Assembly: GCF_900964775.1 (NCBI RefSeq) | Contig: NC_041813.1 | Span: 31,864,960-31,928,959 of the forward strand | Direction of reading: 5' to 3' | DNA from: Scleropages formosus | Taxonomy: Eukaryota | DNA: 64,000 nucleotides | In this document: piece after piece, positions 1 through 64,000 of the stretch | How the letters are laid out: every line of letters starts with the position of its first letter | Numbering within the stretch: position 1 is the stretch's first letter | Made by a program: the position numbers and the translations under genes | Notes under the pieces: generated by a model | Seen by the model: only the letters and a program-made list of their open reading frames with translations | The model's database searches: none | What the model was told of the DNA's origin: nothing

Positions 1-237
1 CAGGTCAATAAGAACACTATTTCTACAGGTGTGTGTGCGAGTGTGTCCATTCATGTGTTCATAAGCATGCACATGCATTAACAGTGCAGCACATGATGAG
101 TTTGGAAAGAGGAACTCTAAAACTAGGGGAACAGGACACCTTTACATCTCTCTGTCTCTCTCGCTCTGTGTAGTTTGTAGATGAGGAGAGAGGAGGACTT
201 GAGGGAGAGAGAATGTCTTTCTTGTCAAGACAGACAA

Positions 238-267
238 TTAATAATAATAATAATAATAATAATAATG
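238..267. repeat. (AAT)10 microsatellite
   Basis: aataataataat... Confidence 0.9.
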
Positions 268-563
268 TCCCAATAATAGTATTTTTTTTTCTAAAAGGCC
301 TTTATGTTGTTTACAGTTTGTATAATCCTCGTTTTCCTGCTCTCAAGTTGTTTTGCCTGTGCCTTTTATATTATTTAACCTCACTTAATATGTCTTCATC
401 ATTCTGTTTGTCTACCAAGGTATTTTGCATAATTTGTGCATTTTGTTAACCTTTCTGCTTGTGCCTTTTTGTCCCCCAGCTCTGTGCCAATCATTTTCAT
501 TTTGTGCCCTTTGGTGCAGCCTGCTTCTGTGTGTGTTTCTCACACTGAGATCTCTCTGTGCCT

Positions 564-625
564 TTCTCTCTCTCTCTCTCTCTCTCTCTCTCTCTCTCTC
601 TCTCTCTCTCTCTCTCTCTCTCTCC
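564..625. repeat. (CT)31 microsatellite
   Basis: Perfect tc dinucleotide tract. Confidence 0.95.
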
Positions 626-1019
626 TTTCTCCTCTCTGTGTTGGGACCGTGCGTTGAGGTGGACACTGTCATCCACCCGTGTGTGATTAGAGCTTCAGGT
701 ACTACATTGACTATTAATTATATTGATAATATAATATAATTATACTGAACCAGTCTGCCTGTGTGCTGTGTTTCCTCACTCCGTGTGTGCGGAGATGAGG
801 GGATCATTATGGCCTGGGAGGGTCATTCCTCTCTTCCCCGTGCACGTGCAGGCCGCATGTCAGCGCAGAAAGTGGGGAAATGGAAGCGGGGTTGTGGATT
901 ACCATACAGTGAACAGATACTCCTGCAGCGGACAATTCTTCGCAGTGCCCCTCGAAAAAGGCGGGAACCGGTGCTAAATGCTCAGGAATTCTGCAGTTTC
1001 CCGCTTGAATGTCGCTAAT

Positions 1020-62700: not shown

Positions 62701-63437
62701 AGCACACGAATTCGGGGCAAGTGGTGATCACCGCAATGGCTCTGGTAACCATGACGATGACGACATCATTGTGGTGTCTGATGAGAGTCCTGTGTTGGCG
62801 CGCAACCGGGAGTCAAGGGACATACAGCTGAAGTTCCGCTGTCGCGCTAACTTGTACAAGATTCCCATGCAGTCAGTAAGAATATTACGTGTTTTATTTG
62901 CTAGATTTGACAGCAGTTTTTTTTTTTTATTTCCCAACTTTATTTAGTAAAGTTATCAATACAATACACAACCAAAAACAAAAAAAAGAAACAAAAAAAT
63001 CCACGATTAACCAAACCCAAAACCATTTTTCCTACAGTTGGTCAACCAAACTTACTAAATAGCCATTACATAAAATACATTGTCAAGACAGTGACAAAGT
63101 CTTTCCCATAACAATCCCCCTTCCTGGCTTCAAAAATATATAACTGACCCATGTCTTCCCCTCACCAACATACCCACGAAAGGACTGAAAGGATTTGACG
63201 GCAGTTTTGAAGGCTGTTTTACCACGAGCCTTTGTGAGTAAGTGCACAGTCCCGGTCAGGGGTGGGGGGTTAATAACCTCCGTCCATTCCAGACCGCGCC
63301 CTTGAGGATGGCGGTGGACCAGCTTTCGGAGAAGTTAAGAGTGCCGCCTGCGCAGATACTGCTCTTAAGGAGGGACAGCGAGCTCCCCGTGGACAGGACT
63401 GCAAAGGAGCTTGGCTTGGGCATTGCGGACATCATCG
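59759..63437 (+). CDS. nfatc2ip: NFATC2-interacting protein (NIP45, NFATC2IP). 5' part of the gene, 7 coding exons; it continues beyond the window.
   Basis: Exon peptides: MSEP|ETDSDSDYGSKSPHLPPSKRRRIIDPSAVTTVPIYSNK|VSTSLQLKPSILPDSS|..SEDAGELPLWPESQTAPRAETKSITVALSDSEEEPEENGVP|ETIHSPSPPPPPRRHIAKTTRRANQKI|KEINRKLNAIDSLLSPAHEFGASGDHRNGSGNHDDDDIIVVSDESPVLARNRESRDIQLKFRCRANLYKIPMQS|TAPLRMAVDQLSEKLRVPPAQILLLRRDSELPVDRTAKELGLGIADII. These match human RRRRLVLDPGEAPLVPVYSGKVKSSLRLIPDDLS..., SPLSPPSPRTKSRTHTRALKKLSEVNKRL, and the first SUMO-like domain KIRCRADLVRLPLRMSEPLQSVVDHMATHLGVSPSRILLLFGETELSPTATPRTLKLGVADII. Confidence 0.85.
60154..60267 (+). CDS. nfatc2ip: nfatc2ip exon 2
   Basis: tcctgcag|GAGACCGAC...AACAAG|gtgtgt. 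Confidence 0.8.
60270..60330. repeat. (GT)n-(GC)n-poly(T)26 compound tract immediately after the nfatc2ip exon 2 donor
   Basis: gtgtgtgtgtgtgcgcgcgcgcgtgcgtgggttttttttttttttttttttttttttctttc. Confidence 0.9.
61169..61228. repeat. 10-bp minisatellite (CTTTACCTCA) x6 in an nfatc2ip intron
   Basis: actttacctcactttacctcactttacctcactttacctcactttacctcactttacctc. Confidence 0.9.
61383..61431 (+). CDS. nfatc2ip: nfatc2ip exon 3
   Basis: cctcag|GTCAGCACAAG...CAGCTCAG|gtaacg. Confidence 0.75.
61971..62094 (+). CDS. nfatc2ip: nfatc2ip exon 4
   Basis: ttcttgcag|TCAGTGAAG...GGAGTTCC|gtgagt. The long form is needed for phase compatibility with exon 5. An internal GTGAGC sits at 61986. Confidence 0.6.
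62332..62415 (+). CDS. nfatc2ip: nfatc2ip exon 5
   Basis: ttcttag|AGAAACGATCC...AAGATTAA|gtgagt. Confidence 0.75.
62656..62875 (+). CDS. nfatc2ip: nfatc2ip exon 6 (start of SUMO-like domain 1)
   Basis: ttccag|AGAGATCAAC...CAGTCA|gtaaga. Confidence 0.85.
63292..63437 (+). CDS. nfatc2ip: nfatc2ip exon 7 (SUMO-like domain 1). 3' boundary uncertain.
   Basis: ttccag|ACCGCGCCC... The candidate donor ATCATCG|gtgggg is weak. The open frame would otherwise stop at TAG at about 63464. Human NIP45 has a second SUMO-like domain downstream, so the gene very likely continues past the window end. Confidence 0.6.
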
Positions 63438-63606
63438 GTGGGGCTTTCTCGAGAATCATTAATTAGTCAAAATGAGAAATCCCCCCCCCATCGTGCTGGA
63501 GGGTTTTCCTTTATGTATGTATGTAACTTTAACAACTGGTGTATTTTTCAATCACCACCAGATTTTAAGTTTATGTTGTCCTGTAAACTAATCGTAGACA
63601 GTTAGA

Positions 63607-63960
63607 TAAATAGCTACATTTATATTTATCAGATGCTTTTCTCCAAAGCGACTTCCAATGAACTCTATGTAGTGTTATCAACCCACACACCTTATTCACC
63701 AGGGTGGCTTACAGTGCCAGATACACTACTTACACTGGGTCACTCATTCATACATCAGTGGAACACACACACACTAGGGGTGAACCTGAACAGCATGTTT
63801 TTGGAGTGTGGGAGGAAACCCACACGGACGCAGGGAGAACATACAAGCTCCACACAGACTGAGTTGGAATCGAACCTATGTCCTCTTACTCCACCCAGGC
63901 ACTGTGAGACTGCAGTGCTACTCGCTGTGCCACCATCCGCTACACACATAAAACTTTATT
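63607..63960 (-). mobile_element. SINE (family B), minus orientation. Extends to the window end.
   Basis: The reverse complement of 63730-63960 aligns base-for-base with the 19340 element (gcggatggtggcacagcgagtagcactgcagtctcacagtgcctgggtggagtaagaggacataggttcgattccaactc...gggtttcctcccacactccaaaaacatgctgttcaggttcaccc). The tail at 63607-63700 is ...cattggaagtcgctttggagaaaagcatctgataaatataaatg. Confidence 0.7.
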
Positions 63961-64000
63961 TCTGAATGGACTACCAAGGCACCGAAAGTGTCCCGTAACA

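What the first reader, a model, noticed from the sequence alone, without database searches (positions are those of the whole stretch)
1..64000. Compacted, rearranged teleost counterpart of human 16p11.2: atxn2l–lat–spns1–prrt2–[ZNF x2]–doc2a–nupr1–sgf29–nfatc2ip in 64 kb
In human these orthologues sit in two separate 16p11.2 sub-blocks about 1 Mb apart. One block holds NUPR1-SGF29 ... ATXN2L-TUFM-SH2B1-ATP2A1-RABEP2-CD19-NFATC2IP-SPNS1-LAT. The other holds PRRT2 ... DOC2A, which are themselves separated by about 10 genes. Here all of them lie within 64 kb. Lat sits directly next to atxn2l, so tufm, sh2b1, atp2a1, rabep2 and cd19 are absent from between them. prrt2 and doc2a are separated only by two lineage-specific ZNF genes. 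nfatc2ip follows sgf29. This points either to an ancestral, more compact arrangement later broken up in tetrapods, or to lineage-specific rearrangement and gene loss. Either would make this an informative locus for reconstructing the ancestral 16p11.2 block.
Basis: partly seen in the sequence, partly recalled or inferred. Interest (0 to 1): 0.55.

Follow-up and report, generated by a model that had tools for sequence, protein, structure and literature searches.

The report
Arowana version of teleost 16p11.2 block
This is an ordinary, correctly read, gene-dense stretch of the Asian arowana genome holding eight fish versions of human 16p11.2 genes plus two zinc-finger genes; the shuffled order is mostly shared by all teleosts and partly published, apart from one probable inversion specific to the arowana's group.

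Summary
The window is Scleropages formosus (Asian arowana) DNA. It carries, in order, atxn2l(+), lat(-), spns1(-), prrt2(+), two C2H2 ZNF genes(+), doc2a(-), nupr1(-), sgf29(+) and nfatc2ip(+, cut off by the window end). Every identity was confirmed by named orthologues, Pfam, solved-structure matches or a tree.

Most of the "unusual" adjacencies (atxn2l-lat, sgf29-nfatc2ip, doc2a-nupr1, prrt2-ZNF-doc2a) also occur in elopomorphs and clupeocephalans. A 2024 paper already reports SH2B1-ATXN2L-LAT-SPNS1-NFATC2IP-SGF29 as conserved among teleosts. Zebrafish 16p11.2 homologues were shown in 2012 to be linked with their order not conserved.

Only the spns1|prrt2 junction and the separation of nfatc2ip from spns1 are special to this lineage. 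Arowana, Arapaima and a mormyrid share them. Albula, Clarias, six other teleosts and human keep nfatc2ip next to spns1. One inversion of the prrt2-to-nfatc2ip segment in Osteoglossomorpha explains this most simply.

The two ZNFs are not arowana-specific; they have syntenic orthologues in Arapaima and eels. Whether the compact order predates teleosts could not be tested. Interest is low.

The parts
1614..9368 (+). atxn2l (ataxin-2-like), complete CDS of about 18 coding exons
   Evidence: S. formosus ATXN2L isoform X1 (P0037, 1021 aa) maps from residue 1 at 1614 to residue 1021 at 9368. Pfam finds SM-ATX, LsmAD and PAM2. The PAM2 motif 'STLNPNAKEFNP' can be read at about 7500.
11438..14268 (-). 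lat (linker for activation of T cells), convergent with atxn2l
   Evidence: P0001 (NCBI: LAT family member 1 isoform X2, S. formosus) matches the exon peptides exactly. It has MEEA..., a transmembrane helix, a juxtamembrane C26xxC29 motif, five YxN motifs and a 'YIEVLPDS' site (read from the sequence). It gives no Pfam hit.
18648..23805 (-). spns1 (spinster homologue 1), 12 coding exons, upstream of lat on the same strand as in human
   Evidence: S. formosus SPNS1 (P0052) maps at 92-100% per exon. Pfam finds MFS_1. Against solved structures it scores 726 bits to SPNS1 versus about 542 to SPNS2.
23806..25446 (.). spns1|prrt2 divergent intergenic region; inferred site of one breakpoint of the osteoglossomorph inversion
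   Evidence: The spns1<->prrt2 junction is present in Scleropages, Arapaima and Brienomyrus. In Albula, Clarias and six other teleosts the gene upstream of spns1 is nfatc2ip. The breakpoint position is an inference.
25447..26546 (+). prrt2 (proline-rich transmembrane protein 2)
   Evidence: The Arapaima orthologue P0130 maps here. Pfam finds CD225 at the C-terminus, E = 3.9e-25. All tetrapod hits are named PRRT2.
30531..32433 (+). ZNF1: a two-exon C2H2 gene with an N-terminal helical exon (30531-30700) and a linker plus five fingers (31396-32433)
   Evidence: Exon peptides; Pfam zf-C2H2 five times. The Arapaima orthologue is 91% (N-terminal exon) and 64% (rest) identical at the same position. 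The Albula glossodonta orthologue is 55% identical over 333 aa.
34196..36148 (+). ZNF2: a paralogous two-exon C2H2 gene (34196-34370; 35111-36148), 39% identical to ZNF1
   Evidence: The Arapaima orthologue is 78% and 59% identical. The Gymnothorax orthologue is 50% identical over 246 aa and lies five locus tags from that species' nfatc2ip.
39986..46606 (-). doc2a (double C2-like domain alpha), about 10 coding exons
   Evidence: DOC2A proteins of Danio and Aldrovandia map across ten exons. An N-terminal '[21 protein letters not shown]' motif and two C2 domains are present. It sits in the DOC2A clade of the NJ tree.
51743..52183 (-). nupr1 (nuclear protein 1 / p8), two coding exons
   Evidence: Pfam Phospho_p8, E = 3.3e-25. 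Named 'nuclear protein 1-like' hits. The Arapaima orthologue is annotated at the collinear position.
54450..58222 (+). sgf29 (SAGA-associated factor 29), divergent from nupr1 as in human
   Evidence: Maps to the Arapaima SGF29 part of P0135 at 95-100% per exon. Pfam finds SGF29_Tudor. Matches the human SGF29 tudor structure 3me9 at E = 1e-100.
60163..63436 (+). nfatc2ip (NFATC2-interacting protein), 5' part only; the last exon(s), encoding the second SUMO-like domain, lie beyond position 64000
   Evidence: The NFATC2IP part of Arapaima P0135 (residues 257-492) maps here, while residues 493-582 find no match. Residues 405-498 correspond to NFATC2IP SLD1 (2l76) and 505-581 to SLD2 (2jxx, 3rd2). 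Named NFATC2IP hits, E down to 1e-50.

Best explanation
The window is a normal, gene-dense piece of an Asian arowana chromosome. It is the arowana copy of a block found throughout teleosts, made of orthologues of human 16p11.2 genes.

In teleosts outside the Osteoglossomorpha the block reads (mvp) prrt2 - ZNF(s) - doc2a(-) - nupr1(-) - sgf29(+) - nfatc2ip(+) - spns1(+) - lat(+) - atxn2l(-) - (sh2b1).

In the common ancestor of arowana, Arapaima and mormyrids, the roughly 38-kb segment from prrt2 to nfatc2ip was most probably turned round by a single inversion. That put prrt2 head-to-head with spns1 and detached nfatc2ip from spns1. It left every gene intact and kept the small human-like units (nupr1<->sgf29 and spns1->lat).

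Shown: the gene identities, the order and strands in the window, the same two junction sets in Arapaima and Brienomyrus, and the alternative nfatc2ip->spns1 junction in Albula, Clarias and six fusion models.
Inferred: that the difference arose through one inversion; that the non-osteoglossomorph order is the ancestral one (because human shares NFATC2IP-SPNS1-LAT); and that the compact order predates the teleost genome duplication (because both elopomorph paralogous regions show the same locus-tag order).
For: Species and gene identities.

Osteoglossomorph pattern:
- Arapaima L007 reads lat(-) spns1(-) prrt2(+) ZNF1 ZNF2, and L006 reads nupr1(-) sgf29(+) nfatc2ip(+). Both are collinear with the window.
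- Brienomyrus L002 reads prrt2(-) spns1(+) lat(+), followed by atxn2l-like hits.
- Paramormyrops has a fused SGF29+NFATC2IP model.

Pattern outside Osteoglossomorpha:
- Albula L005 reads nfatc2ip(+) -> spns1(+).
- Clarias L004 reads nupr1(-) sgf29(+) nfatc2ip(+) spns1(+).
- Six further species have single gene models running NFATC2IP into SPNS1.
- Aldrovandia L003 reads sgf29(-) nupr1(+) doc2a(+).
- Locus-tag orders agree: Albula ZNF 229580, DOC2A 229600, NFATC2IP 229620, ATXN2L 229650; Aldrovandia PRRT2 050330, ZNF 050370, DOC2A 050390, ATXN2L 050430, and in the second region PRRT2 366880, NFATC2IP 366930, ATXN2L 366970; Gymnothorax ZNF 214900, NFATC2IP 214950; Pangasianodon ZNF 045470, PRRT2 045490.
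- Chanos has mvp(+) -> prrt2(+).

Literature: teleost LAT neighbours SH2B1, ATXN2L, SPNS1, NFATC2IP and SGF29 are conserved in location and orientation (PMC10839663). Human order NFATC2IP-SPNS1-LAT (PMC11354020).
Against: - The far breakpoint was not seen. The window ends inside nfatc2ip, and the 10 kb beyond nfatc2ip in Arapaima holds only Tc1 transposon remnants. The prediction that mvp lies there is therefore untested.
- Much of the order outside Osteoglossomorpha rests on locus-tag numbering and on mis-fused gene models, not on read coordinates.
- Assignment of the paralogous regions is not clean. The window's ATXN2L piece is closer to the Aldrovandia copy on one region (87% against 83%), whereas its PRRT2 is closer to the copy on the other (256 against 210 bits).
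- The ZNF2|doc2a junction was not cross-checked in another osteoglossomorph.
- No non-teleost outgroup gave usable context.
Confidence: 0.7

Rival explanations
1. The same end state was reached by more than one event, for instance transposition plus inversion of the spns1-lat-atxn2l block, or two overlapping inversions, rather than one inversion of prrt2-to-nfatc2ip.
For: Only one of the two breakpoints (spns1|prrt2) is visible. The region beyond nfatc2ip is unknown. Teleost micro-rearrangements are frequent in this region, since zebrafish gene order is not conserved with human (PMC3484866).
Against: Both blocks keep their internal order and orientation exactly, which is what a single inversion predicts. 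A multi-step route is less parsimonious.
Confidence: 0.22
2. The osteoglossomorph order (spns1 head-to-head with prrt2, nfatc2ip detached) is the ancestral teleost state, and the nfatc2ip-spns1 adjacency of other teleosts is derived.
For: Osteoglossomorpha branch early among teleosts, and three families share the arrangement.
Against: NFATC2IP-SPNS1-LAT, in that order and on one strand, is also the human arrangement (PMC11354020). It is found in Elopomorpha and in many clupeocephalans. This rival would require the same adjacency and orientation to arise independently.
Confidence: 0.05
3. The gene order is an assembly artefact (a chimeric or misjoined scaffold).
For: None found.
Against: The junctions atxn2l|lat|spns1|prrt2|ZNF1|ZNF2 and nupr1|sgf29|nfatc2ip recur in independent assemblies: two of Arapaima and one of Brienomyrus. 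Doc2a|nupr1|sgf29 recurs in Aldrovandia. There are no N runs in the window.
Confidence: 0.03

Closest known systems
Teleost LAT locus synteny (Nile tilapia and other teleosts; Zool Res 2024, PMC10839663)
   Same: LAT is flanked by ATXN2L (with SH2B1 beyond) on one side and SPNS1 on the other, and SGF29 lies next to NFATC2IP. These are the same genes and the same lat/atxn2l and sgf29/nfatc2ip adjacencies as in the window.
   Different: In those teleosts NFATC2IP lies next to SPNS1. In the window, prrt2 lies next to spns1, and nfatc2ip is about 36 kb away in the opposite relative orientation.
Zebrafish chromosome 3/12 clusters of 16p11.2 homologues (Blaker-Lee et al. 2012, PMC3484866)
   Same: Conserved linkage of 16p11.2 orthologues, including doc2a and prrt2, in a teleost, with gene order not conserved relative to human and with duplicates from the teleost genome duplication.
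   Different: That study covered only the proximal BP4-BP5 genes and gave no fine-scale order for the genes in this window. The arowana block mixes distal and proximal genes within 62 kb.
Human 16p11.2 distal (NUPR1-SGF29 ... ATXN2L-LAT) and proximal (PRRT2 ... DOC2A) intervals (PMC11354020 Table 1)
   Same: Eight orthologous genes. The NUPR1/SGF29 pair and the SPNS1-LAT tandem are kept as units.
   Different: The human genes span about 1.5 Mb, with ten genes between PRRT2 and DOC2A and five between ATXN2L and NFATC2IP. The fish block spans 62 kb, lacks the intervening genes, has a different order, and includes two teleost ZNF genes.
Arapaima gigas orthologous region (loci L006 and L007)
   Same: Identical gene order and orientation for lat-spns1-prrt2-ZNF1-ZNF2 and nupr1-sgf29-nfatc2ip, with collinear non-coding conservation.
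   Different: Slightly more compact: prrt2 to the end of ZNF2 takes 9.4 kb against 10.7 kb in the window. The transposon content differs.

Membership tests
Conserved-synteny counterpart of human 16p11.2 | Several neighbouring genes are orthologues of genes from one human interval | tested here: met
   8 of 10 genes. Human map from PMC11354020.
Conserved-synteny counterpart of human 16p11.2 | Gene order and orientation collinear with human | tested here: not met
   Only nupr1<->sgf29 and spns1->lat keep the human arrangement. The overall order is different.
LAT (linker for activation of T cells) | Very short ectodomain, one transmembrane helix, a juxtamembrane CxxC palmitoylation motif, several YxN (Grb2/Gads) motifs and a PLC-gamma-type tyrosine | tested here: met
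   P0001 is identical to the window exons. It has MEEA..., a transmembrane helix, C26IRC29, YEN, YVN (three times), YIN and 'YIEVLPDS' (the comparison with the human motifs is from my own knowledge). NCBI names it LAT family member 1. It lies next to spns1 as in human.
LAT (linker for activation of T cells) | Match to a Pfam family | tested here: not met
   P0001 hits no Pfam family at E <= 0.01. Fish LAT is very divergent; the Arapaima orthologue is only about 40% identical.
PRRT2 (dispanin / CD225 family) | C-terminal CD225 two-helix domain after a proline-rich N-terminus, and closer to PRRT2 than to other dispanins | tested here: met
   CD225 at residues 160-226, E = 3.9e-25. All tetrapod hits in the top 120 are named PRRT2, although some fish hits are auto-named TRARG1. 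Mvp is its neighbour in Chanos, and MVP lies close to PRRT2 in human too.
NUPR1 (p8) | Small (about 75-80 aa) basic protein matching Phospho_p8 | tested here: met
   A 75-aa model; PF10195, E = 3.3e-25. Divergent neighbour of sgf29, as in human.
DOC2A | N-terminal Munc13-interacting motif plus tandem C2A/C2B domains, grouping with DOC2A rather than DOC2B or rabphilin | tested here: met
   Motif read; two C2 stretches. In the NJ tree the window nests with fish, gar and mammalian DOC2A. Identity is 70-76% to fish and gar DOC2A and 62-63% to mammalian DOC2A, against 54-61% to DOC2B and rabphilin-like sequences. No bootstrap was run.
SPNS1 | 12-helix MFS transporter, closer to SPNS1 than to SPNS2 or SPNS3 | tested here: met
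   MFS_1, E = 3e-41. 726 bits to SPNS1 (9boi) against about 542 to SPNS2.
SGF29 | N-terminal coiled coil plus C-terminal tandem tudor domain | tested here: met
   PF07039, E = 2e-30. Human SGF29 tudor structure 3me9, E = 1e-100.
ATXN2L | Lsm (SM-ATX), LsmAD and PAM2 motifs; the ataxin-2-like paralogue | tested here: met
   All three Pfam families are found. The species' own entry is named ataxin-2-like. A second, 85%-identical paralogue exists elsewhere in S. formosus (P0085).
NFATC2IP (NIP45) | Two C-terminal SUMO-like (Rad60-SLD) domains | tested here: inconclusive
   The window holds the region corresponding to SLD1. The SLD2 exon(s) lie beyond position 64000. The partial model gives no Pfam hit. 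Identity rests on named orthologues, E down to 1e-50, and on the collinear Arapaima gene.
[quoted passage not shown] | A 28-aa glutamate-rich FiNZ exon; the family is reported as unique to cyprinids | not testable with these tools
   No FiNZ consensus sequence was available to compare. The literature restricts FiNZ to cyprinids (PMC10547256), so I do not file ZNF1/ZNF2 there. They share only the two-exon layout.
MAZ (the C2H2 gene adjacent to PRRT2 in human) | Specific similarity beyond generic C2H2 fingers | tested here: not met
   ZNF1 matches solved structures only through its generic finger array (ZNF568, CTCF, PRDM9). MAZ is not among the 60 matches listed (of 120 found), and nothing matches the N-terminal 250 residues.

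The most novel reading that the evidence does not exclude
The compact order prrt2-ZNF-doc2a-nupr1-sgf29-nfatc2ip-spns1-lat-atxn2l predates the teleost genome duplication and reflects the ancestral bony-vertebrate arrangement. If so, genes now split between the human distal (BP2-BP3) and proximal (BP4-BP5) 16p11.2 CNV intervals were once one contiguous cluster that was pulled apart in the tetrapod lineage. The prrt2-to-nfatc2ip inversion would also be a rare genomic change that marks Osteoglossomorpha.
Probability: 0.2. Interest if true: 0.35.

Novelty: already known. Interest (0 to 1): 0.15.

Why it matters
It matters little beyond routine comparative genomics. All the genes are known and annotated. 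The linkage of 16p11.2 orthologues in teleosts, with scrambled order, has been published since 2012, and the LAT-centred part of this block since 2024.

Two small points may be useful. First, the inversion shared by arowana, Arapaima and mormyrids could serve as a minor structural character for Osteoglossomorpha. Second, the block shows that distal and proximal human 16p11.2 genes are tightly linked in fish, which could help anyone reconstructing the ancestral arrangement once gar, bowfin or bichir are compared.

It also documents recurrent annotation errors at this locus: fused NFATC2IP-SPNS1, SGF29-NFATC2IP and NUPR1-DOC2A models.

Tried and rejected
- S. formosus context look-ups through LAT X2 and ATXN2L X1 were 'not on record', so the true flanks of the window could not be read.
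- The gar DOC2A locus was uninformative. The gene is 21 kb long and the only neighbour is a tandem-repeat artefact.
- The paddlefish NFATC2IP was not on record.
- The bowfin PRRT2 flanks hold only reverse-transcriptase and Tc1 remnants.
- The prediction that mvp lies beyond nfatc2ip found no MVP-like sequence in the Arapaima flank or at the window end, because the flank is filled with transposons. It is untested rather than refuted.
- I first thought the ZNFs were FiNZ-ZNFs. I withdrew this after reading that FiNZ is a 28-aa cyprinid-specific domain.
- MAZ orthology of the ZNFs was rejected.
- The sterlet and mammalian 'SPNS fusion' proteins turned out to be SPNS paralogue artefacts and are irrelevant.
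I replaced them with long stop-free segments, which gave no hits.
- Rfam and tRNA scans were empty.
- The CpG-island scan was uninformative in this CpG-rich fish DNA.
- The Blaker-Lee supplementary coordinates are not held.

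
Full report
WHAT IS THERE

The window is vertebrate DNA. It is rich in CA/GT microsatellites, has no tRNA or Rfam matches, and carries multi-exon genes whose exon peptides are visible among the stop-free segments.

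A search with LAT and NUPR1 exon peptides returned NCBI's 'linker for activation of T-cells family member 1 isoform X2 [Scleropages formosus]' (P0001). Its sequence can be read residue for residue in the window's exons. S. formosus ATXN2L and SPNS1 entries likewise match at 97-100% per exon. The window is therefore Asian arowana DNA. Arowana belongs to the Osteoglossomorpha, an early-branching teleost lineage.

Mapping the species' own or closest orthologous proteins onto the window gives this map:
- atxn2l + 1614-9368 (complete CDS)
- lat - 11438-14268
- spns1 - 18648-23805
- prrt2 + 25447-26546
- ZNF1 + 30531-32433
- ZNF2 + 34196-36148
- doc2a - 39986-46606
- nupr1 - 51743-52183
- sgf29 + 54450-58222
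- nfatc2ip + 60163-63436, then running off the end of the window

GENE IDENTITIES

Pfam confirms SM-ATX/LsmAD/PAM2 (atxn2l), MFS_1 (spns1), CD225 (prrt2), C2H2 fingers (both ZNFs), two C2 domains (doc2a), Phospho_p8 (nupr1) and SGF29_Tudor (sgf29).

Paralogue assignment was also checked:
- The SPNS model scores 726 bits to SPNS1 against about 542 to SPNS2 among solved structures.
- The C2 gene nests in the DOC2A clade, away from DOC2B and rabphilin.
- All tetrapod hits to the CD225 gene are named PRRT2.
- SGF29 matches the human tudor structure at E = 1e-100.

LAT has no Pfam hit. It does have the defining anatomy: MEEA..., a transmembrane helix, C26xxC29, five YxN motifs and a 'YIEVLPDS' site. 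It is the species' annotated LAT, and it sits downstream of spns1 as in human.

The nfatc2ip fragment corresponds to the region up to the first SUMO-like domain. The second domain lies beyond the window.

Nothing else was found between the genes. The atxn2l-lat gap is about 2 kb, and the longer (95 aa or more) non-low-complexity stop-free segments from the larger gaps that were scanned hit no Pfam family.

IS THE ARRANGEMENT SPECIAL?

I used orthologues returned by the searches as anchors to read the annotated neighbourhood in other fishes. I also used mis-fused gene models and locus-tag numbering as further evidence of adjacency.

Within Osteoglossomorpha the window's junctions recur:
- Arapaima has lat(-) spns1(-) prrt2(+) ZNF1 ZNF2, and separately nupr1(-) sgf29(+) nfatc2ip(+). 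Both are collinear with the window down to non-coding blocks.
- The mormyrid Brienomyrus has prrt2(-) spns1(+) lat(+), followed by atxn2l-like sequence.
- Paramormyrops has a fused SGF29+NFATC2IP model.

This also argues against misassembly.

Outside Osteoglossomorpha:
- Albula (Elopomorpha) has nfatc2ip(+) followed directly by spns1(+).
- Clarias (Otophysi) has nupr1(-) sgf29(+) nfatc2ip(+) spns1(+).
- Six more species have single gene models running NFATC2IP into SPNS1.
- Aldrovandia has sgf29(-) nupr1(+) doc2a(+).
- Locus tags give: Albula ZNF 229580, DOC2A 229600, NFATC2IP 229620, ATXN2L 229650; Aldrovandia PRRT2 050330, ZNF 050370, DOC2A 050390, ATXN2L 050430; a second Aldrovandia region PRRT2 366880, NFATC2IP 366930, ATXN2L 366970; Gymnothorax ZNF 214900, NFATC2IP 214950; Pangasianodon ZNF 045470, PRRT2 045490.
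- Chanos has mvp(+) immediately upstream of prrt2(+). MVP is also a near neighbour of PRRT2 in human.

A published synteny analysis states that LAT and its neighbours SH2B1, ATXN2L, SPNS1, NFATC2IP and SGF29 are conserved in location and orientation among teleosts (PMC10839663).

Together these give a teleost-wide block: (mvp) prrt2 - ZNF(s) - doc2a - nupr1 - sgf29 - nfatc2ip - spns1 - lat - atxn2l - (sh2b1).

It follows that lat next to atxn2l, nfatc2ip after sgf29, doc2a next to nupr1, and prrt2 separated from doc2a only by ZNFs are general teleost features. They are not peculiarities of this window.

WHAT IS PARTICULAR TO THIS LINEAGE

Only one thing differs. In the three osteoglossomorph families sampled, spns1 is head-to-head with prrt2, and nfatc2ip is detached from spns1.

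NFATC2IP-SPNS1-LAT, in that order and on one strand, is shared by human, Elopomorpha and Clupeocephala. The osteoglossomorph state is therefore the derived one.

Both sub-blocks, [atxn2l lat spns1] and [prrt2 ... nfatc2ip], keep their internal order and orientation. The simplest route is thus a single inversion of the roughly 38-kb prrt2-to-nfatc2ip segment. One breakpoint would lie in the 1.6-kb spns1|prrt2 spacer, and the other beyond nfatc2ip, outside the window. This step is inferred.

The model predicts that mvp, or whichever gene was the ancestral upstream neighbour of prrt2, lies just beyond nfatc2ip. I could not test this. The Arapaima flank holds only Tc1 remnants, and the arowana's own proteins were not retrievable with genomic context.

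THE ZINC-FINGER GENES

ZNF1 and ZNF2 share a two-exon layout: an N-terminal helical exon ('M[TK]KLQLLN[QE]YLTERLM...RRRLRE') followed by a linker and a C2H2 array. They are 39% identical to each other.

- Each has a 1:1 orthologue in Arapaima at the same place (91%/64% and 78%/59% identity).
- ZNF1 has an orthologue in Albula glossodonta (55% over 333 aa), and ZNF2 has one in Gymnothorax (50% over 246 aa). Both sit at syntenic locus tags.
- The N-terminal domain has 332 representative clusters, and all 20 named carriers sampled are teleosts.

The pair is therefore an old resident of the teleost block and is not arowana-specific.

I withdrew an initial FiNZ label, because FiNZ is reported as a 28-aa cyprinid-specific domain (PMC10547256). 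I also found no support for MAZ orthology.

HOW FAR BACK DOES THE COMPACT ORDER GO?

Both paralogous regions of elopomorphs show the same tag order (prrt2 ... nfatc2ip or doc2a ... atxn2l). This suggests that the order predates the teleost genome duplication.

The inference rests on tag numbering. The assignment of regions is also not clean: the window's ATXN2L and PRRT2 are each closest to copies on different Aldrovandia regions.

No non-teleost outgroup gave usable context. Whether tetrapods broke up a compact ancestral cluster, or teleosts compacted a human-like one, remains open.

COMPARISON WITH WHAT IS KNOWN, AND VERDICT

Zebrafish 16p11.2 homologues were shown in 2012 to cluster on chromosomes 3 and 12 with 'gene order not conserved' (PMC3484866). 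The LAT-centred part of the block was published in 2024. All the genes are annotated in public records.

The finding is a correct reading of an ordinary locus. The one small unreported detail is the probable osteoglossomorph inversion.

I rate interest at 0.15 and novelty as already known.

Noticed in passing
window 57756-57920 (- strand reading); also L004 13705-13854 and L006 13921-14070: The first 55 residues of NCBI's zebrafish DOC2A isoform X2 (P0022) align to the antisense translation of the sgf29 tudor exon (49% identity, E = 5e-11). This suggests a predicted alternative doc2a first exon that overlaps sgf29 on the opposite strand. It is either an annotation artefact or a long antisense or read-through transcript spanning nupr1.
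   Followed up: partly
Proteins P0020, P0023, P0026, P0033, P0038, P0039, P0087, P0135, P0175, P0011; loci L003, L004, L006: Public annotations repeatedly fuse neighbouring genes at this locus. NFATC2IP is fused with SPNS1 in seven species, SGF29 with NFATC2IP in Arapaima and Paramormyrops, and NUPR1 with DOC2A in Aldrovandia. These could be read-through transcription or systematic annotation errors. They were useful here as evidence of adjacency.
   Followed up: partly
window 30531-30719, 31423-31941, 35186-35662: The 2015 draft S. formosus protein KPP68194.1 (P0254, 395 aa) is a chimeric model. It joins the N-terminal exon and linker of ZNF1 to the linker of ZNF2 and skips ZNF1's fingers.
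   Followed up: yes
window 30531-30692 and 34196-34363: The roughly 54-aa N-terminal helical domain of the two ZNFs matches no Pfam family, yet it has 332 representative clusters, and every named carrier sampled is a teleost. Some carriers are very long (1249-2735 aa) uncharacterised proteins lying near prrt2 or nfatc2ip in catfish, Chanos and a gymnotiform. It appears to be an undescribed teleost ZNF-associated domain, distinct from FiNZ as published.
   Followed up: partly
window 48624-49859 (matches L006 18-1577) and window 14740-17960 (matches L007 132-3031): These collinear blocks are conserved with Arapaima outside the coding exons. One lies between doc2a and nupr1, and the other lies upstream of lat. 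They are probably UTR exons, promoters or conserved non-coding elements. Arapaima's 317-aa LAT model (P0002) extends its N-terminus into the second block (window about 16027-16416), which is probably a 5'UTR mis-called as coding sequence.
   Followed up: no
window 19369-19708 and 63615-63931 (inverted); 3940-4025 and 38117-38201: A SINE-like element of about 340 bp is present in a spns1 intron and, inverted, in the last nfatc2ip intron (82-90% identity). A second short dispersed repeat pair also exists.
   Followed up: partly
Proteins P0085 (S. formosus), P0143 (Arapaima), P0139 (Brienomyrus); the elopomorph pairs: Second copies of atxn2l and prrt2 exist on other chromosomes in osteoglossomorphs and elopomorphs, presumably from the teleost genome duplication. 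In Aldrovandia the window's ATXN2L and PRRT2 are each most similar to copies on different paralogous regions. This conflicts with a simple one-to-one correspondence between the window and either Aldrovandia region.
   Followed up: no
L006 20300-30313; L008 flanks: The 10 kb downstream of nfatc2ip in Arapaima, and both flanks of bowfin prrt2, are filled with Tc1/mariner transposase and reverse-transcriptase remnants. The window itself, by contrast, is compact and poor in transposons.
   Followed up: no
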